Source: Escherichia phage vB_EcoM_SA91KD. Taken from it: 53,673 nt of DNA. The notes beneath the pieces are model-generated. The model did not search any database. It was not told the DNA's origin and saw only the letters and a program-made list of their open reading frames with translations. Below are positions 2,737 to 18,254 of this stretch, piece by piece (position 1 is the first letter of the stretch; each line of letters begins with the position of its first letter). The position numbers and the translations under genes are program-made. The stretch lies in the sequence record NC_079183. One strand, 5' to 3'.

Positions 2737-3568
2737 GTAACAGAATACGGAGAAGTATTCCGCATGTCATGTTGAAATCATTCTAGAAACATTTCAGCAT
2801 GTCAACTAAACATACAGTGTTGTAATGATGTGGCAATCATTGAACTCCCTGTCTTTGGCCGGACAAAGTTCCAACAACCATGTGTGAAGTAGGAATTAGA
2901 TTCGAAACTGTTCTTCAACTAAAGCATGTTCAATTGCGACAATATTGCTCCATCTCCTATTATAAAGGCCCACCCACAAGCCGGGAGATAACTTTAGCAA
3001 GACTGGAACTTTTGGACATGCTTCTTTCTTTCAATCAGAATTCGAAAGAAGAGCAGAGTCGGAGCAAAGCCGCGAAACTAATCCCGTAGCCCGCCCCGAT
3101 TTTGAGCAACAAATATTGTGACAATATTGTCGCAGTATGGCATGTAAATATTGCTACAAATTGGCATGTTGGAATGTGGCAGAATTGTTAGAGGACTAAT
3201 CACCTCGAAGATACAATCGTCTACCAATCTGGCATGTTAATTTTGTAACAGTATTTGTGCCAATTTCGCATGTAATAGCTGTATCAGTATTGACCCAATA
3301 TTCTTGCAACCCGCATGAATACTGGCTTCCAGCCAAGCGAAGGCTTTATCATCGCATGTAATATTGTGACAATATTGGGATAAAACCCTTTATTTAATTG
3401 GTTTTATTATGCTGTACATGGTCGGTTTTCCGTACCTGCTTGCTCCAATCTTAATGTGCCAAATACGTTAAGTATGGGAGTAAACCTGTAATTAATGACG
3501 CATGTTTAATTGTGACAAAATTCGTCTATTTGGCAGATGAATTAGTTGCAATTAAGCATGTCCATTTA

Positions 3569-3590
3569 TCATTAGTTGTATGTGAATAAG
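3569..3590 (+). promoter_or_regulatory. Promoter-like box variant (tCATTAGTTGtATGTGAa)
   Basis: Close match, about 280 nt upstream of the first early gene. Confidence 0.35.
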
Positions 3591-3873
3591 ACCAAATCTC
3601 TGTAAATTCTGCTGAAATTGTGTGACAGATTTTAGAGAGATTATGTCTCCAAGCTAATCATTGTAGTTTTTAGACACTTTGTGTGTCACATATATAGCCT
3701 GTGAAAAACGTGTGGTATATTGCTGGATTGCGACGCGCCCACCAGACTAGGAAGTCACTGACGGCGGCACACAGGAATACTATATAACTCCCTACAACTT
3801 TAAGGTGGATTGAGGTAAGACAAGACCTCCACAATCGTTCTGTAGGGAGTTTTCTTTAACTTAGGAGAATAAA

Positions 3874-13853: not shown

Positions 13854-14528
13854 ATGTCTTATCATGATGATGACAAAGAGATTGCACTATCAACGTGTAA
13901 GCAATGGCTCAATGATAATGATGCCGTCTATCTTGCCAAGGAAGATGTTATCATTATGTGGGTCCATTTTAATCCAGAATCGAAGCGCGGTGAGTGGCAA
14001 CGCTACAAGATGAAAGAGGCTTGTCGCATAATTAAAGCCACACGCGCTGGCTTCTCTGCTATGAAATACATCAAGCCAGAGATGCTGATGCTTGCTGCAC
14101 AGGAAGAAGAACGTGCATATAAGCAAGCTGTTAAATCTCGTTCAACTGTTCCTCCAGAGTTCTTTAATTTGGAGCGCGCTGGACACTTCAACAATTTAGA
14201 AATGTTGACACTGTGCCTGTTGCAAGAATTAGTTGGAAGAGGACAAAACATTGAAGCTGTTTGTCTTGGAGAACTCATGAAAGAGTTGTTCTCGGCAAAG
14301 GGCTTTGCTGTGCCAAACCGGACTTTACGCTGGAAATTGTTGCGAGCAGTCGCGCAAGAAGCTGGTGTAGTTGTTCGTGACAGAACAAACCGATTCACTG
14401 TAACTGGAGTTGGGCGTTTTGTAGCAATCCAGATTGAGGGTTATGACGAATCAATCATCACTGAACTCACTGTCGCTGAGACAAAGGATTTAGTAAACAA
14501 AACACTAGAACGATTCAATAGATATTGA
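13854..14528 (+). CDS. Hypothetical protein (224 aa)
   Basis: ATG 2 nt after the upstream stop (track ORF starts at TTG 13797); no recognisable motif. Confidence 0.55.
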   Translation: MSYHDDDKEIALSTCKQWLNDNDAVYLAKEDVIIMWVHFNPESKRGEWQRYKMKEACRIIKATRAGFSAMKYIKPEMLMLAAQEEERAYKQAVKSRSTVPPEFFNLERAGHFNNLEMLTLCLLQELVGRGQNIEAVCLGELMKELFSAKGFAVPNRTLRWKLLRAVAQEAGVVVRDRTNRFTVTGVGRFVAIQIEGYDESIITELTVAETKDLVNKTLERFNRY

Positions 14529-14651: not shown

Positions 14652-14990
14652 ATGGCTAAGATTGTAACCGTAACTCAGTACGAAGCTAACGATGGTTCCC
14701 TGTTCCTGACCGAAGCAGAGTGTAATGCACATGACTTCAAACTGGAAAACGGTGCTAAAATTGAGAAAGCTGCCGAAGCGTACCTGAACACCGTTGGCGC
14801 TATCGACCGTTCTCGCTCCATGCAGAAGAACACCATCGAGCAGTTCCTGGCATTCTACCTGCCGTGGGTTGAAGCTGGTGAGCCGGAAGTTGAGCGTACT
14901 AAGTTCGATACTCCGAAAGAAGCTAAAGTTGCTGACGCAAGTGTTGCCGAAGCTGCCGAAGCTGCTGTTGAAGAAGCTCCGGTATTCTAA
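14652..14990 (+). CDS. Acidic small protein, apparently highly expressed (112 aa)
   Basis: aagg RBS; strongly biased codon choice (ctg, ccg, cgt, ggt, ttc, aac) like the capsid and SSB genes; acidic Ala/Glu-rich C-terminus ending EEAPVF. Confidence 0.6.
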   Translation: MAKIVTVTQYEANDGSLFLTEAECNAHDFKLENGAKIEKAAEAYLNTVGAIDRSRSMQKNTIEQFLAFYLPWVEAGEPEVERTKFDTPKEAKVADASVAEAAEAAVEEAPVF

Positions 14991-15129
14991 GTTGCCGATG
15001 GCAAACTTGAGAGACTAAGCTAAATCGATCTGGCATGCACTGGAAGATTTCCGGTGCTGCCTTGAATCCCATTCCAGAGTGAGTGGGCTTCAATGAGCAT
15101 TCTTGTGATTAGAGTTGGGAGGTAGGCCG

Positions 15130-15336
15130 ATGCCCAAGCTCATGGCCCAGACAAGAGTGTTCATTGAAGTTACTTCAATATGGATTGTCGCCAAGTTGTG
15201 GAAGGACGTGCACACAGATTTAACGAAGAAAAGTAACAGCCTGAGAACTGTGAAAATTTCCCGTTATGTCGTGGGGAAGTGCACCATAACTTGGGTTCTT
15301 CACGTAGATATTACTCAAATATTTGCGGCTCGCTGA
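15130..15336 (+). CDS. Possible small protein (about 68 aa)
   Basis: Strong gggagg RBS 7 nt before ATG; odd composition, could be non-coding. Confidence 0.3.
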   Translation: MPKLMAQTRVFIEVTSIWIVAKLWKDVHTDLTKKSNSLRTVKISRYVVGKCTITWVLHVDITQIFAAR

Positions 15337-15878
15337 ATGTGAGCATCCATATTGAAGTAGTTTTCTGAGTCTTACGACGGGCCTAAACTGCCTGAAGTTA
15401 TTGCGACTGTTTTATTCATTTAAAATAAATGCAAATGATTCTGAAATGCGAGTTGCGGCTTAATTAAATTTAAGTCCTCTCCGTGGTCTTCCAATCCCAC
15501 GTAACCAAATTTGGCGCATTGTGGCTTCGAGATGTGATTAATAAATCGGAGCATTAATTAATTTGTATTCTGCGATGTAATGCAGACTTAAGTCCCTCAG
15601 TGCGCGTAGGGATGTGACAGAGTACAAACTTAATTCATTTAAAGTGAATTGCCCTGAGCATGGAAATAAACTGCTCAAACCGATGGTATCTACAAAGGTA
15701 GATTAAATCAGGTTGCCTGTTGGTACTTGGGTTCAACACCTGCTTGCACTCGCAAAGTAGTGCCTCGTACCTGAGATGAAGTGAGTCGGGACCATCAATC
15801 CCACGTTATGTCAAAACACAGTAGGCGACTCACGGATTCTACAAGCCTCGCAGTTCGGGAAAACCTGCGTTATCAAAA

Positions 15879-15888
15879 CCCCCCCCCC
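15879..15888. repeat. C10 homopolymer tract
   Basis: Read directly, 8 nt upstream of the tRNA-like element. Confidence 0.85.
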
Positions 15889-15895
15889 ATTATTT

Positions 15896-15982
15896 GGACG
15901 AGTAGCTCAGAAGGTCTGCTCCAGAGCTGGTAGAGCAATCTGTTCGACAGATGTGTCGTTGGTTCGAATCCAACCTCGTCCA
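15896..15982 (+). tRNA. tRNA-like element with atypical internal structure (possible pseudo-tRNA or non-canonical tRNA)
   Basis: Canonical 7-bp acceptor stem (GGACGAG / CTCGTCC) and T-arm (GTTGG-TTCGAAT-CCAAC) with discriminator A; the 55 nt between them cannot be folded by eye into standard D and anticodon arms. Anticodon not assignable. Confidence 0.35.
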
Positions 15983-16015
15983 CCCACTTTAATAATTCGC
16001 AATACTGGAGTCCTT

Positions 16016-16156
16016 ATGGATTTTGATGCACTTGATAACTTAGACTTCGGTGCTGCCGAAGAAGCAATTGAAGAACTTAAGAAGAAGCAGGACGAAGAAG
16101 CAATCGTTCCTGGTGAGGGCGATAACGACTGCTCAAGCGGTGCTTGCGCCATCTAA
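16016..16156 (+). CDS. Small acidic peptide with Cys/Ser-rich C-terminus (46 aa)
   Basis: ATG after ggag RBS; acidic N-terminal part then ...CSSGACAI-stop. Confidence 0.35.
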   Translation: MDFDALDNLDFGAAEEAIEELKKKQDEEAIVPGEGDNDCSSGACAI

Positions 16157-16164
16157 GGTGATTT

Positions 16165-16401
16165 ATGCAACAGCTTAAATCAATAATTCTTGGCGTCCTG
16201 ACTGCATTTGGCATTATCATTGCAGTGTTCCTCAAAGGCAAAAGCTCAGGCAAAGCCGAGGAGCGTCAGGAAGCCACAGAGAAGCAACTAGATTCATTAA
16301 AAGAATCTATCGAGATTAAGTCGCATGTTCAGAAAGAAGTGTCTAGCAGTTCTGATAGCAATGTCGATAGTGAGTTGCTCTCAAAGTGGGTTCGTAAGTG
16401 A
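16165..16401 (+). CDS. Membrane protein with N-terminal TM helix and charged helical periplasmic domain; i-spanin-like (78 aa)
   Basis: TM segment IILGVLTAFGIIIAVFL; aaggtg RBS; the next gene overlaps out of frame. Confidence 0.45.
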   Translation: MQQLKSIILGVLTAFGIIIAVFLKGKSSGKAEERQEATEKQLDSLKESIEIKSHVQKEVSSSSDSNVDSELLSKWVRK

Positions 16402-16534
16402 TTATTGCTTAATTGCACAACCAATCTATTTGGATGTTGCAGAAGTGAAAATATTATCACGCGAAACCAAAACACAGATTTTAGTCCACAATGAAACGTG
16501 GGCACAAAAGTGTTCGAAACTTACCCGACAGTGA
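16325..16534 (+). CDS. Predicted lipoprotein overlapping the 3' end of the preceding gene in another frame; o-spanin-like (69 aa)
   Basis: Signal/lipobox-like MFRKKCLAVLIAMSIVSC. The overlapped architecture is typical of Rz/Rz1. Confidence 0.4.
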   Translation: MFRKKCLAVLIAMSIVSCSQSGFVSDYCLIAQPIYLDVAEVKILSRETKTQILVHNETWAQKCSKLTRQ

Positions 16535-17521
16535 GTGAACAAGACGGACGTCTATAACTTCCCACATGGCCTAGCTAGTTGGTGGTGTAAAAGACTGACC
16601 AAGGTGACGACAGCCAAAGTCGAGGGAGTGCGCGACTTTAAATAACGAGACTCTAGCAACTTGTTGCGATGATGGTGTAAGCCCATGCGTTTGGAAGCAG
16701 GACTCCAACTCAAACAAACCTGCAAGTTGCTCTGGGCATAACAATTGAAATTGCTGCCTCGTATTGAACGCGAGAAAGTTCAGGTAGTCACTTCCTAGAA
16801 CAGTGGCCGGGAACACACCTAGACAAAAGTGCTTGAGAACGTTAGCTCTGTCTTGCCAGCATTAATGGCACGTTGGCCGCGTAAAGGCCACAGCGTCTGA
16901 CCAACGTATCGGTCACTAAATTCAATGGATTCGTAGAGTTAATTAAACCTGCACGATGGGATAGGGATGTAGCATCCGAGGCCGACTGTGTAATTGTGAA
17001 CTTCGCGTTCGCCGAATCCGCCAAATCAATGGGCTAGTGCAAATGTCAGTCACTAGAAGATGTGTTGCAAAACGTCTTCCATGATGTGCAAAGTGTCAGT
17101 CACGTGCCCGCCAATTTACCTCCAACAGTTATGCCTCTGTTCAAAAGGCTCAAGAGAGCGTCTGGCATACCGTAGCGATACGGCTTAGTTGCGCTGATTG
17201 TGTTGTGCAGAAAGAAAGTTCAGGCTTTCGTTTGGGTTACTCCTCATCCCGAAGTTAGCTGGATTCAAAATCCAGACTATGTTCCTATACACATGAAATA
17301 TGCAAGTCGAGGGTTCTTAATGTTCAAACATGATGCGAGCATTAAGCGGGTTTATACTTTTCCCCGATGGTCCCCATAAACAAGTCTGATTCACTTGGGC
17401 GGTTCGAATCAAATTTAATAAGTGTCTTGGCCGCAGTGGAAACATCATTTAAGCCAATGTTTTGTAATGTTCGTAATAGTCCACGTCAGGACACTTACTT
17501 AAATTTTAACTGGAGAGAAAC

Positions 17522-17743
17522 ATGAAAACTGCTGAAATTGCCGAAGAGATTTATAAGGCCGTAATAGCCAGCCAAATCACAAGTGAAGTCCTGCACATGG
17601 ATATTGAAGAAGTTCGCAATGCCTTTGGTGGTTTTGCAATCTTGTCAATAGAAGCTGCGGAAGCACTGACAAACACGTACAATCAACGCGAGTATGAAAA
17701 GCGTTCTGTACTAAATGCGTCATTACAGGCGTCATTAAAATAA
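17522..17743 (+). CDS. Hypothetical protein (73 aa)
   Basis: ggagag RBS then ATG; first gene after the non-coding region. Confidence 0.55.
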   Translation: MKTAEIAEEIYKAVIASQITSEVLHMDIEEVRNAFGGFAILSIEAAEALTNTYNQREYEKRSVLNASLQASLK

Positions 17744-17783: not shown

Positions 17784-18254
17784 ATGAACCGGAGTCCAAC
17801 ATTGACCAAGCTGTCTAAGAAGTTTGTGTTAGACTGTGCTGCAAAAAGGTTTGACCAAATCAATTGGACTTGCAGTGGCAGATATGCGAGAACGGCAATA
17901 TATCTTAGTGGAAGACACTACAGTGTATGTAGGCACGTACTTGTATTCTACATGCACACAGGAAAGGTTGTTGACAAAGTTGACCATATTGATGGAAACA
18001 CCTTCAACGATGTTCCAGGCAATTTGCGGGAAGCAACACAACTTCAAAATTGCCACAACAGAAAGATAAACTCAAACAACTCATCTGGAGTTAAAGGTGT
18101 GCACAAAGATTCCAGAGGGAAATTTGTTGCAAGGTTGCGAGTAGGTAATGGTAAAAGAATTTTCATAGGCAACTTCGATAAACTAGAGGATGCCGAAATA
18201 GCTATCAACAAGGCCAGAACATTTTATCACGGAGAATACGCGAACAATGGCTAA
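17784..18254 (+). CDS. HNH homing endonuclease with AP2-type DNA-binding domain (156 aa)
   Basis: HNH_3-like HIDGNTFNDVPGNLREATQLQNCHN, then AP2-like GVKGVHKDSRGKFVARLRVGNGKRIFIGNF. Confidence 0.7.
   Translation: MNRSPTLTKLSKKFVLDCAAKRFDQINWTCSGRYARTAIYLSGRHYSVCRHVLVFYMHTGKVVDKVDHIDGNTFNDVPGNLREATQLQNCHNRKINSNNSSGVKGVHKDSRGKFVARLRVGNGKRIFIGNFDKLEDAEIAINKARTFYHGEYANNG

What the first reader, a model, noticed from the sequence alone, without database searches (positions are those of the whole stretch)
15019..17521. A 2.5-kb stretch with almost no protein-coding capacity in the middle of the genome
Between the acidic gene (ends 14990) and the next clear gene (17522), both strands lack convincing ORFs except three tiny overlapping genes at 16016-16534. 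The stretch holds a C10 tract, a tRNA-like element, local hairpins (for example ctggatt-caa-aatccag near 17250), short shared motifs (caatcccacgt twice; taagtcc twice) and an RBS-like ggagcatt followed only by ATG-TAA. Such a large non-coding block is unusual in a compact phage genome and suggests structured RNAs, a degraded mobile element or intron, or a regulatory hub.
Basis: seen in the sequence. Interest (0 to 1): 0.55.

Follow-up and report, generated by a model that had tools for sequence, protein, structure and literature searches.

The report
Phage RNA-gene island with tmRNA-like RNA
The 2.5-kb "gene desert" of this phiEcoM-GJ1-like coliphage is a conserved island of RNA genes, including an unannotated relative of bacterial tmRNA that keeps the tag-coding part but has no recognisable tRNA-like part and turns up in about 780 sequenced phages.

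Summary
Window 15019-17521 has no convincing protein genes apart from three small ones at 16016-16534: a 46-aa acidic protein and Rz/Rz1-like spanins. The flanking blocks show no codon periodicity, yet they are conserved across the family Chaseviridae.

What lies there is structured RNA on the + strand:
1. **tmRNA-like RNA, 15354-15558.** It has a resume-codon region, a 10-codon tag frame (ANDSEMRVAA, 15431-15463), a stop codon inside a hairpin, and two covariation-supported pseudoknots. No acceptor/T-arm domain was found. ARAGORN misses it and its Rfam scores are below threshold. Homologues occur in 780 phage records (Chaseviridae, Felix O1-like, Vi1-like, G7C-like, P7), usually inside tRNA clusters. 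All 86 modules examined keep exactly 10 codons followed by a stop.
2. **tRNA-Arg(UCG)-like gene, 15896-15982,** with a 14-20-nt insertion in the D loop.
3. **A roughly 320-nt structured RNA, 17125-17440,** with 19 covarying pairs, found only in Chaseviridae-like genomes in the searches I ran, and no Rfam match.
4. **Further conserved hairpin modules.**

The most likely mechanism is inferred, not shown. The tmRNA-like RNA would act as the coding piece of a split tmRNA, or else as a decoy of trans-translation. I call it a new variant of a known kind.

The parts
15019..15353 (+). Block A1: ORF-poor leader with stem-bracketed modules. These are an imperfect 37-nt inverted repeat (15070-15106/15151-15187) and a perfect 15-nt inverted repeat (15171-15185/15345-15359) that encloses 159 nt and abuts the tmRNA-like RNA.
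   Evidence: Inverted repeats found. Islands 15062-15153 are conserved in Faunus, 4HA13 and SSEM1, but sit at different positions relative to the tmRNA-like module. No codon periodicity. The 73-aa ORF 15115-15336 has no family hit. No formal covariation test was run.
15354..15558 (+). tmRNA-like RNA (mRNA-like domain plus pseudoknots, no tRNA-like domain). Invariant 5' motif AGTTTTC at 15359-15365; A/U-rich TAAAT immediately before the resume codon.
   Evidence: Sub-threshold Rfam hits: tmRNA_permuted 20.8 bits, alpha_tmRNA 14.9 bits. Homologues score up to 30.7 bits, and beta_tmRNA aligns the resume region, tag and first pseudoknot. 82-86% identical in distant genera. 84-sequence alignment A3. 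ARAGORN calls no tmRNA.
15431..15463 (+). Tag reading frame: GCA AAT GAT TCT GAA ATG CGA GTT GCG GCT TAA, giving ANDSEMRVAA followed by a stop.
   Evidence: All 86 modules have exactly 10 codons then a stop (TAA 82, TAG 2, TGA 2). Codon 1 is always GCA. Codon 10 is always Ala, written with all four synonymous codons. In 67 of 86 an in-frame stop lies 4-11 codons upstream with no ATG/GTG/TTG in between. The other two frames vary in length. A profile of the phage modules aligns in register to E. coli ssrA 80-128.
15457..15477 (+). Helix-5-like hairpin that holds the stop codon (GGCTTAA 15457-15463 / TTAAGTCC 15470-15477).
   Evidence: Read from sequence and alignment A3. The equivalents are CTGG..GCC-TAAC-GGC..CCAG and CTGA..GGC..GCC..TCAG. 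No formal test, because MAFFT misaligns this stretch.
15482..15514 (+). Pseudoknot PK-a: stem CGTGG 15482-86 / CCACG 15497-15501; loop CCAA 15491-94 pairs with TTGG 15511-14.
   Evidence: both helices are 97-100% paired in 84 sequences, with 6 pairs changed on both sides (for example CG:51/UA:33 and GC:58/AU:26). Slid controls are 28-51% paired.
15515..15551 (+). Pseudoknot PK-b: CGCAT 15515-19 pairs with ATGTG 15532-36; CTTCGA 15525-30 pairs with TCGGAG 15546-51; invariant loop GATTAATAA.
   Evidence: the variable pair occurs in three states, C:G 49, U:A 20, G:C 15. The second stem varies as GCCC/GGGC, CCCTGA/TCAGGG and CTTCGA/TCGGAG. VpaE1 has CGTAC/GTATG.
15559..15895 (+). Block A2: hairpin modules. 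These are X (15655-15677, TGAGCA/TGCTCA), a bracketed module closed by 15781-88/15826-33, W (15849-15869, CGCAG/CTGCG), and then the non-conserved C10 tract at 15879-15888.
   Evidence: Islands 15646-15685 and 15820-15881 are conserved at 78-93% identity in Erwinia, Pantoea and Aeromonas phages, partly in a different order. Compensatory changes seen by eye: TGAACA/TGTTCA in SSEM1 and Y2. No formal test.
15896..15982 (+). tRNA-Arg(UCG)-like gene with a 14-20-nt insertion in the D loop. The window has ACCC after the acceptor stem; relatives encode ACCA or GCCA.
   Evidence: Rfam tRNA 45.6 bits with an 18-nt insert in the D loop. ARAGORN calls it Ser here and Leu in GJ1, which is inconsistent. 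The GJ1 record says 'tRNA-Arg, may contain an intron'. The insert differs between relatives. It folds as a cloverleaf once the insert is removed.
15889..15904 (+). Phage-promoter-like sequence ATTATTTGGACGAGTA overlapping the 5' end of the tRNA-like gene (weak lead).
   Evidence: Two mismatches to the consensus ATTAGTTGGANGNGGA, which matches perfectly at 14228 and 14560. Only partly conserved in relatives.
16016..16156 (+). Small acidic protein gene (46 aa), function unknown.
   Evidence: Codon-phase bias 2/1/17, p=6e-6. No PHROG or Pfam family.
16165..16534 (+). Overlapping spanin genes: Rz-like 16165-16401 and Rz1-like 16325-16534.
   Evidence: phrog_1026 E=2e-20; phrog_1275 E=1e-17. Annotated as Rz-like spanins in the relative Mangalitsa.
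16535..17120 (+). Block B1: the most variable block, with conserved hairpin modules. These are Y (16617-16638), a stem 16655-63/16723-31, Z1 (16765-16782), Z2 (16787-16807, with conserved loop TTCCTAGAAC) and V (16925-16951).
   Evidence: Islands are conserved in distant genera at 84-95% identity. Four helices are 75.6% paired against 29-44% when slid, with 6 pairs changed on both sides. This support is weaker than for the other RNAs. No codon periodicity, and 46 of 56 indels are not multiples of three.
17125..17440 (+). Large structured RNA (about 320 nt) with no Rfam match. It has a 5' H-type pseudoknot (ACAG 17125-28 / CTGT 17137-40, with GCCT pairing to AGGC), a GNRA hairpin at 17169-17184, a hairpin at 17231-17253 with the invariant pyrimidine loop CTCCTCAT, and hairpins at 17259-17275 and 17279-17294.
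   Evidence: Alignment A4 of 14 sequences. RNAalifold predicts 54 pairs. With the pseudoknot added, 58 pairs are 97.6% paired against 37-46% when slid, and 19 pairs change on both sides. The motif scan of IMG/VR returned only 8 contigs, mostly 52-54 kb Chaseviridae-sized ones. Nothing in Rfam at E<=10.

Best explanation
**What it is.** The stretch is the phage's RNA-gene island, a conserved feature of Chaseviridae. It is read rightward, on the same strand as the flanking genes. I found no sigma-70 promoter inside it. Phage-type promoter matches lie upstream at 14228 and 14560.

**What is shown.**
- It carries a roughly 200-nt relative of tmRNA: resume region, a 10-codon tag frame (ANDSEMRVAA), a stop codon inside a hairpin, and two pseudoknots.
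- It carries a tRNA-Arg(UCG)-like gene with an expanded D loop.
- It carries a roughly 320-nt structured RNA of unknown class.
- It carries several smaller conserved hairpin modules.
- The spanin genes are embedded in the middle.

**What is inferred.** The tag frame appears to be decoded by ribosomes. It has no start codon, a fixed length, synonymous variation at the final Ala codon, and interchangeable stop codons. Without a start codon, ribosomes can only enter it by trans-translation. I therefore propose that this RNA is the coding piece of a split tmRNA. In this model a stalled ribosome that has accepted an alanyl tRNA-like acceptor with SmpB resumes on the phage GCA codon and appends the phage-specified tag. 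The acceptor would be supplied in trans, either by a separately encoded phage RNA or by host tmRNA/SmpB. I could not identify that acceptor.

**My estimates.**
- RNA island: about 0.9.
- Homology to the tmRNA mRNA-like domain: about 0.85.
- The tag is actually translated: about 0.6.
- The split-tmRNA mechanism: about 0.35.
For: - **Not coding, yet conserved.** No ORF support, no codon periodicity, and conservation higher than in a neighbouring gene.
- **Family-wide synteny and conserved islands**.
- **tmRNA relationship.** Every homologue tested gives sub-threshold hits to the permuted tmRNA models. beta_tmRNA aligns the resume region, the tag and the first pseudoknot. A profile built from the phage modules finds the E. 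coli ssrA tag region in register.
- **Tag frame.** All 86 modules have 10 codons followed by a stop. The final Ala uses four synonymous codons. All three stop codons occur. In 67 of 86 there is no in-frame start codon after the upstream stop.
- **Pseudoknots.** 98.6% of cells are paired against 28-51% in slid controls. Seven pairs change on both sides, in 161 cells, and none of 500 shuffles reaches this.
- **Strand.** Invariant G:U pairs (GU in 84 of 84 sequences; UG and GU in 14 of 14) would be A:C mismatches on the other strand.
- **Own transcription unit elsewhere.** In other phages the module has its own sigma-70 promoter ending a few bases before AGTTTTC, and it sits inside tRNA clusters on the same strand.
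- **Block-B RNA.** 19 covarying pairs.
- **tRNA-like gene**.
Against: - **No tRNA-like domain.** ARAGORN reports no tmRNA in any of the 43 sequences scanned, the window included. Rfam scores stay below the gathering thresholds (20.8-30.7 bits against 47).
- **No acceptor partner.** Scripts found no 3' partner for the module's 5' end, and no G3:U70 acceptor plus T-arm nearby other than ordinary tRNAs.
- **No precedent known to me** for a tmRNA coding piece that lacks the 5' acceptor strand.
- **Confounded tag signal.** Part of the tag's conservation could come from the RNA helix that overlaps codons 7-10.
- **Weak similarity to E. coli ssrA** (6.5 bits).
- **No expression data** were available.
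- **Thermodynamic stability is unremarkable.** Mean z is -0.74 in the blocks against -0.87 in coding flanks.
- **Block B1 support is only moderate**.
Confidence: 0.55

Rival explanations
1. The tmRNA-like RNA is a decoy. It mimics the mRNA-like domain and pseudoknots of tmRNA and titrates host factors of trans-translation (SmpB, ribosomal protein S1, RNase R) or blocks rescue. That would keep phage or host translation products from being tagged. On this reading the tag frame is never translated.
For: The tRNA-like domain is missing in every copy examined. There is a precedent for a partial phage tmRNA: mycobacteriophage DS6A carries little more than the tRNA-like domain, and a similar molecule strongly inhibits tmRNA when expressed in E. 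coli (PMC4131195, PMC11915505). The pseudoknots and resume region are the most conserved parts.
Against: A decoy does not explain the reading frame. Its length is exact in all 86 modules. The last codon is always Ala, written with four synonymous codons. TAA, TAG and TGA replace one another in frame. Arg at codon 7 is written CGA, CGC or CGT. I know of no factor that binds the mRNA-like domain without the tRNA-like domain (own knowledge).
Confidence: 0.2
2. The blocks are cis-acting signals only: phage-polymerase promoters and terminators, RNase III or RNase E processing sites, an origin or recombination hot spots. They would regulate the embedded lysis genes and downstream replication genes. 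No trans-acting RNAs would be made.
For: Chaseviridae use a T7-like RNA polymerase, and GJ1 has annotated phage promoters nearby. Many modules are simple hairpins with conserved loops, some closed by long stems that would suit RNase III. Relatives carry insertions of HNH endonuclease and Imm genes here, which suggests a recombination-tolerant region.
Against: The tmRNA-like module occurs in unrelated phage families, with its own promoter and in tRNA clusters, so it does not depend on this gene context. Two H-type pseudoknots and a multi-helix 320-nt fold with 19 covarying pairs are far more than processing sites need. Only one weak promoter-like match lies inside the island, and the scan found fewer sigma-70-type promoter-like and intrinsic-terminator-like sites than in shuffled sequence.
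Confidence: 0.08
3. The stretch is decayed sequence: remnants of a mobile element, intron or pseudogenes, with a tmRNA fragment picked up from a host (for example by imprecise prophage excision at ssrA) and now drifting.
For: ssrA fragments are known in prophages (PMC9004378). The island is mosaic among relatives, with many indels, especially in block B1 (27% variable sites, 56 indels).
Against: Prophage att fragments carry the 3' end of ssrA, not the tag region, and I know of no temperate Chaseviridae (own knowledge). The module is under clear purifying and compensatory selection in 84 distinct copies. Blocks A and B2 are less variable than a flanking gene. There are no intron or transposon hits.
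Confidence: 0.03
4. The blocks hide unrecognised small protein genes, or genes that need recoding or sequence correction.
For: Several GenBank records annotate short hypothetical ORFs here, including improbable 'tail tape measure' and 'endolysin' labels. The 46-aa gene at 16016 shows that tiny genes do exist in the island.
Against: Neither block shows codon-phase bias, and indels are mostly not multiples of three. The mechanical ORFs have no PHROG or Pfam family. The annotated ORFs differ from record to record. The variation follows base pairing, not codons.
Confidence: 0.03

Closest known systems
Bacterial tmRNA (SsrA), in particular the coding piece of two-piece (permuted) tmRNAs of Beta- and Alphaproteobacteria (Rfam RF01850, RF01849, RF04321)
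   Same: A/U-rich leader ending in UAAAU before a GCA resume codon. A 10-codon tag of the type AND....AA (E. coli: ANDENYALAA). The stop codon sits in a helix-5-like hairpin. H-type pseudoknots follow the tag. The best model alignments are to the permuted families, and the profile aligns in register to E. coli ssrA.
   Different: No acceptor stem, no G3:U70, no T arm, no CCA end and no helix 2. The 5' end (AGUUUUC) is not an acceptor strand with a detectable partner. Only two pseudoknots. Scores are below every Rfam gathering threshold, and ARAGORN does not see it.
Known phage-encoded tmRNAs (mycobacteriophage Bxz1 group, Bacillus phage G, marine myophage Melnitz two-piece ssrA; DS6A, tRNA-like domain only)
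   Same: They are carried by lytic phages, often next to tRNA genes. The partial form in DS6A shows that phages do keep half-molecules (PMC4131195, PMC9004378, PMC11915505).
   Different: Those are complete tmRNAs that ARAGORN detects, or, in DS6A, the opposite half (tRNA-like domain without the tag). Here only the tag and pseudoknot half is present. The carriers are Enterobacterales phages in which I found no tmRNA annotation or report.
Small stable RNAs in the phage T4 tRNA gene cluster (species 1 and 2 RNAs, rnaC/rnaD); recalled from memory, not tested here
   Same: Stable non-tRNA RNAs of unknown function encoded within a phage tRNA region and released by tRNA-processing enzymes. That is the same genomic logic as modules flanked by tRNAs or tRNA-like stems.
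   Different: I made no sequence or structure comparison. The T4 RNAs have no tag frame.
Large ornate phage-associated RNAs found next to tRNA genes (GOLLD, ROOL)
   Same: Large structured RNAs of unknown function, in phages or prophages, beside tRNA genes (PMC12286853, listed). The 320-nt RNA and the modular arrays fit that setting.
   Different: No Rfam match to GOLLD, ROOL or any other family at E<=10. The RNA here is much smaller, and its host range and sequence are different.

Membership tests
tmRNA (SsrA) | An internal tag reading frame that starts at a resume codon (usually GCA) without a start codon or Shine-Dalgarno sequence, and ends at a stop codon. The tag ends in hydrophobic residues plus Ala-Ala. 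| tested here: met
   15431-15463 encodes ANDSEMRVAA followed by a stop. All 86 homologues have 10 codons plus a stop. GCA is invariant. The last residue is always Ala. In 67 of 86 there is no in-frame start after the upstream stop.
tmRNA (SsrA) | The stop codon lies in or next to helix 5, and pseudoknots lie downstream of the tag. | tested here: met
   The helix-5-like hairpin is read from alignment A3. Two H-type pseudoknots have covariation support.
tmRNA (SsrA) | A tRNA-like domain: a 7-bp acceptor stem formed by the 5' and 3' ends with G3:U70, a T arm, and a CCA 3' end. | tested here: not met
   ARAGORN finds no tmRNA in the window or in 42 loci. No complementary partner for the 5' end was found. 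The only G3:U70 acceptor plus T-arm candidates within 2.5 kb are ordinary tRNAs or chance matches.
tmRNA (SsrA) | Reaches the curated covariance-model threshold of an Rfam tmRNA family. | tested here: not met
   Window: tmRNA_permuted 20.8 bits against 47, alpha_tmRNA 14.9 against 50. The best homologue scores 30.7 against 47, and beta_tmRNA 22.3 against 84. RF00023 matches nothing in the module.
tmRNA (SsrA) | Charged with alanine, binds SmpB and EF-Tu, and tags nascent chains. | not testable with these tools
   Needs biochemistry or proteomics.
Two-piece (permuted) tmRNA | One gene in which an acceptor piece (T arm, 3' acceptor strand, CCA) precedes a coding piece that begins with the 5' acceptor strand. 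| tested here: not met
   In L008, L009 and VpaE1 a sigma-70 promoter lies directly upstream of AGTTTTC, which leaves no room for an acceptor piece. Upstream sequence is unrelated among close relatives.
tRNA | Cloverleaf that reaches the Rfam tRNA threshold, with a T arm GGTTCGAATCC and a 7-bp acceptor stem. | tested here: met
   15896-15982 scores 45.6 bits against a gathering score of 29. The cloverleaf fold is recovered.
tRNA | D loop of normal size and an unambiguous 7-nt anticodon loop. | tested here: not met
   The D loop carries an 18-nt insertion in the window and 19-20 nt in relatives, with different sequences. ARAGORN assigns Ser here and Leu in GJ1, while GenBank says Arg. Read from the sequence, the anticodon stem can close to leave a 5-nt loop, UUCGA.
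Group I / group II intron or other Rfam family (for blocks A and B) | A match to the family covariance model. | tested here: not met
   The Rfam 15 scan of 14900-17700 at E<=10 returns only tRNA, the weak tmRNA hits and four chance-level hits.
Spanins (Rz/Rz1) | A pair of small genes, the second overlapping the first in another frame, that match spanin families. | tested here: met
   phrog_1026 (E=2e-20) and phrog_1275 (E=1e-17). The genes are 16165-16401 and 16325-16534.

The most novel reading that the evidence does not exclude
A widespread, unannotated family of 'tag-template' RNAs lacks a tRNA-like domain. It is found in about 780 sequenced Enterobacterales phages, including Felix O1-like, Vi1-like, G7C-like, P1/P7-like and Chaseviridae. 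On this reading these RNAs reprogramme host trans-translation in trans: the ribosome, rescued by host or phage acceptor RNA plus SmpB, resumes on a separate phage RNA and adds a phage-chosen tag. That would be a mode of trans-translation in which acceptor and template are unlinked molecules. The neighbouring 320-nt RNA and the stem-bracketed modules would then be further members of a processed phage RNA operon acting on translation.
Probability: 0.25. Interest if true: 0.85.

Novelty: new variant of a known kind. Interest (0 to 1): 0.68.

Why it matters
[quoted passage not shown] Here the tag-coding half appears to be under selection as a translated frame, without any detectable acceptor half. 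It is present in hundreds of well-studied lytic phages of E. coli, Salmonella and Klebsiella. Either trans-translation can use an unlinked template, or phages deploy a new kind of inhibitor of ribosome rescue. Both ideas are directly testable in E. coli with phages already in hand.

**Annotation.** ARAGORN and Rfam both miss this RNA, and GenBank records fill the region with spurious small ORFs.

**Phage biology.** The island also holds a new roughly 320-nt structured RNA and an odd tRNA. Chaseviridae therefore devote about 4% of a 54-kb genome to RNA genes of unknown function, which matters for therapeutic phage genomics.

Tried and rejected
- **Rfam.** At gathering thresholds on the whole window, only the tRNA is found. 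At E<=10 on the region there is no intron, riboswitch, GOLLD/ROOL, RNase P, 6S or Y-RNA match.
- **Looking for the missing tRNA-like domain.**
  - Exact complements of the module's 5' end within 1.5 kb: nothing consistent.
  - Motif searches in the window: nothing.
  - T arm followed by a strand complementary to the 5' end, in 105 loci: at best 6 of 7 pairs, and several of the best are ordinary tRNA 3' ends, for example a tRNA-Ser whose 5' end resembles GATAGTT.
  - G3:U70 acceptor plus T-arm candidates: the recurrent hit is a normal tRNA-Met with a chance upstream partner.
- **An apparent resemblance dropped.** Window 15375-15382 (CGACGGG) looks like the 5' region of E. coli tmRNA. It lies in a 30-nt insertion that close relatives lack, so I dropped it.
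- **Pairing with host tmRNA.** RNAduplex of the module against E. coli ssrA was uninformative: -88.7 for the window against -92 +/- 5 for shuffles. An earlier attempt timed out.
- **Thermodynamic stability.** A sliding-window MFE z-score scan does not separate the island from coding flanks. The structural claim therefore rests on covariation only.
- **5' leader.** I could not fix a single covarying fold. The alternatives GTTTTC/GAAAC and TCGGT/ACCGA exclude each other and involve mostly invariant bases.
- **Literature.** Searches on Chaseviridae, tmRNA-like RNAs, Ackermannviridae and the P1 ban operon found only ARAGORN citations. The GJ1 and P1 genome papers are not held.
- **Bacterial genomes.** The motif scan gave 20 hits. 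By my rough estimate about 12 would be expected by chance. Only the hits in Enterobacterales genomes (Erwinia, Pantoea, Rosenbergiella, Rouxiella, Pseudocitrobacter) look genuine.

Full report
**1. What the window is.** The 2.5-kb query matches 49 phage records. The best are Escherichia phages of the genus Carltongylesvirus (family Chaseviridae, phiEcoM-GJ1-like) at 94-97% identity. The window is about the size of a whole genome of this type (53.7 kb).

**2. The observation.**
- Between the acidic gene (14652-14990, phrog_17419) and the gene at 17522 (phrog_32967), the only ORFs with support are three small genes:
  - 16016-16156, a 46-aa acidic protein;
  - 16165-16401, Rz-like (phrog_1026, E=2e-20);
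  - 16325-16534, Rz1-like (phrog_1275, E=1e-17).
- Five mechanical ORFs in the flanking blocks hit nothing in PHROGs or Pfam.
- I collected the sites that differ from eight relatives and sorted them by codon phase.
  - The genes are strongly periodic: 14652-14990 p=2e-4; 16016-16156 2/1/17, p=6e-6; 17522-17743 p=1e-4.
  - Blocks A (15019-15895), B1 (16535-17120) and B2 (17121-17521) are flat (p=0.84-0.89).
  - Their indels are mostly not multiples of three.
  - Blocks A and B2 are less variable (11-12% of sites) than the gene 14652-14990 (24.5%).
- The same gap, between the orthologue of the acidic gene and thyX, exists in every Chaseviridae record I opened. These were from Escherichia, Yersinia, Erwinia, Pantoea and Aeromonas phages. 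Annotators have filled it with inconsistent short ORFs.

**3. The tmRNA-like RNA (15354-15558).**

*How it was found.*
- A permissive Rfam scan gave weak hits to tmRNA_permuted and alpha_tmRNA at 15356-15518.
- The aligned stretch contains TAAAT|GCA AAT GAT TCT GAA ATG CGA GTT GCG GCT TAA, which reads ANDSEMRVAA and a stop. The E. coli tag is ANDENYALAA.

*Distribution.*
- This 140-nt core is 82-86% identical in Erwinia, Pantoea and Aeromonas Chaseviridae.
- It also occurs in unrelated phages.
- A BLAST search with a typical copy hit 780 of 50,697 phage records: Salmonella 270, Escherichia 250, Klebsiella 112 and others. They include Felixounavirus, Kuttervirus/Taipeivirus, Gamaleyavirus and P7. 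Among the 25 records listed across the ranking, one carried a 'hypothetical protein' under the match and the others nothing; none had an RNA feature.

*The reading frame* (86 distinct modules).
- The frame is always exactly 10 codons followed by a stop (TAA 82, TAG 2, TGA 2).
- Codon 1 is always GCA. Codon 2 is Asn in 85 of 86. Codon 3 is Asp or Glu.
- Codon 10 is always Ala, written GCT, GCC, GCG or GCA.
- In 67 modules an in-frame stop lies 4-11 codons upstream with no start codon in between.
- The other two frames have variable lengths.

*The structure.*
- On the 84-sequence alignment A3 two H-type pseudoknots are supported. 98.6% of cells are paired, against 28-51% when the partners are slid. 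Seven pairs change on both sides (161 cells). One pair occurs as C:G, U:A and G:C.
- Further variants keep the pairing in VpaE1 and P7.
- Invariant G:U pairs fix the strand as +.

*Homology to tmRNA.*
- Every homologue gives sub-threshold hits to the permuted tmRNA models.
- The beta_tmRNA model aligns the resume region, the tag and the first pseudoknot.
- An nhmmer profile of the phage modules finds E. coli ssrA 80-128 in register, from resume codon to stop. That score is low (6.5 bits).

*Transcription.* In L008, L009 and the Felix O1-like VpaE1, a sigma-70 promoter ends a few bases before the invariant AGTTTTC. In VpaE1 the RNA runs into tRNA-Arg, so RNase P would make its 3' end.

**4. What is missing.**
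- No tRNA-like domain was found. ARAGORN reports no tmRNA in the window or in 42 loci.
- Rfam's standard tmRNA model does not match the module.
- My searches for an acceptor partner of the 5' end, or for a G3:U70 acceptor plus T arm nearby, found only ordinary tRNAs and chance matches.
- By the family's defining features this RNA is not a tmRNA. It is the mRNA-like and pseudoknot half of one.
- Phage tmRNAs are known (402 genomes by ARAGORN, PMC9004378; 79 sequences in the tmRNA database, PMC11915505). So is a phage molecule with only the tRNA-like domain (DS6A, PMC4131195).
- I found nothing on a form with the tag domain only, or on Chaseviridae.

**5. The tRNA-like gene (15896-15982).**
- Rfam scores it 45.6 bits as tRNA, but with 18 extra bases in the D loop.
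- ARAGORN calls it Ser here and Leu in GJ1, and the GJ1 record says 'tRNA-Arg, may contain an intron'.
- Relatives show a normal D arm (GCTCAG...GTCAGGTAGAGC) interrupted by 19-20 nt of differing sequence.
- Without the insert it folds as a cloverleaf.
- Read with U33 and A37, the anticodon is UCG (Arg), but G32 and C38 could pair.
- A promoter-like match overlaps its 5' end. This is a weak lead.

**6. The block-B RNA (17125-17440).**
- This part is conserved at 74-79% identity in Faunus, 4HA13 and Aeromonas phiA050.
- On 14 sequences RNAalifold predicts 54 pairs.
- With a 5' pseudoknot added, 58 pairs are 97.6% paired against 37-46% when slid, and 19 pairs change on both sides.
- The structure was derived from this same alignment, which favours it. 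The number of compensatory pairs is still far above both controls.
- The motif scan returned only 8 IMG/VR contigs, mostly of Chaseviridae genome size. Rfam has no match.

**7. The rest of the island.**
- Blocks A1, A2 and B1 contain short islands that are 78-95% identical between genera, sometimes in a different order.
- They are hairpins with conserved loops and compensated stems.
- A formal count on four B1 helices gives 75.6% paired against 29-44% when slid. This is moderate support.
- Long inverted repeats bracket some modules.
- MFE z-scores do not distinguish the island from coding sequence.

**8. Mechanism.**
- *Shown:* the RNAs, their folds, the tag-frame statistics, and their distribution.
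- *Inferred:* that the tag is translated.
- The frame has no start codon but behaves like a coding frame, so entry by trans-translation is the simplest reading. That needs an alanyl acceptor and SmpB from elsewhere.
- I therefore favour a split-tmRNA coding piece (about 0.35) over a decoy of trans-translation (about 0.2).
- The identity of the acceptor, and the functions of the odd tRNA and the 320-nt RNA, remain open.

**9. Verdict.**
- The finding is real.
The 'degraded element or intron' option is not.
- The most interesting component is a new variant of a known kind: a tmRNA-derived RNA without a tRNA-like domain, widespread in Enterobacterales phages and unannotated.

Noticed in passing
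L008, L012-L018, L021, L024, L038, L039, L070 and others (IMG/VR contigs and 45-48 kb phages); for example L015, reverse strand, from the module to the tRNAs: Outside Chaseviridae the tmRNA-like module sits in arrays of RNA modules. Each module is bracketed by a long inverted repeat, CACAACAGGTAAGAGCATT ... AGTGCTCTTTCCGTTGTG. The inserts are diverse; some carry a tRNA T arm. Another recurrent module is GGTGAATGCGCAGGCTGATGCGC ... GCCGGAGATCAGCACCGGCCACC. Together they look like an operon of processed small RNAs. Rfam finds nothing at E<=1.
   Followed up: partly
L167 (Escherichia phage VpaE1, Felixounavirus) 1130-1364: In this Felix O1-like phage the module lies between tRNA-Ile and tRNA-Arg. 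It has its own TTGACA-17-TATAGT promoter, the tag ANDNVFLAVA and a TGA stop. It is unannotated.
   Followed up: partly
L168 (phage P7, P1-like) about 1190-1400: A diverged copy (tag ANDDLMMAAA) lies in the leader of the C1-controlled ban operon. It follows an intrinsic terminator and precedes tRNA-Asn and tRNA-Thr.
   Followed up: no
window 15889-15904: The sequence ATTATTTGGACGAGTA resembles the phage promoter consensus (perfect copies at 14228 and 14560) and overlaps the first bases of the tRNA-like gene. Transcription could therefore start at, or very near, the mature 5' end.
   Followed up: partly
window 17231-17253 and 16787-16807: Two conserved hairpins display invariant pyrimidine loops (CUCCUCAU and UUCCUAGAAC) that are complementary to Shine-Dalgarno-like purine runs. 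These are possible seed or anti-SD-like elements.
   Followed up: no
relatives: L130 (DE15) 2112-2558, L134 (Pel53) 526-966, L136 (4HA13) 3226-3657, L002 (Mangalitsa) 3337-3591: The island is a hot spot for insertions in relatives. HNH endonuclease genes sit at three different positions, and Mangalitsa has a T4 Imm-like superinfection-immunity gene there.
   Followed up: no
record PP952070.1 (L134): 'Staphylococcus phage Pel53' (host given as Staphylococcus hyicus) is 89-94% identical to these coliphages across the island. The host label looks doubtful.
   Followed up: no
window 15879-15888: The C10 homopolymer is not conserved; relatives have CCCCC, CCCACC and similar. It is probably a spacer or a slippage-prone run rather than a functional element.
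   Followed up: partly
window 17784-18254: The 156-aa ORF just after the island has the look of a homing-endonuclease-type insert (it reads HIDGNTFNDVP...NCHNRK) between gene 17522 and thyX. GJ1 and Mangalitsa have no gene at that position.
   Followed up: no
GenBank records OP595144, ON778463, MW147599: The small gene after the island is labelled 'tail tape measure protein', and the spanin or a short ORF is labelled 'endolysin'. These are likely automatic mis-annotations.
   Followed up: no
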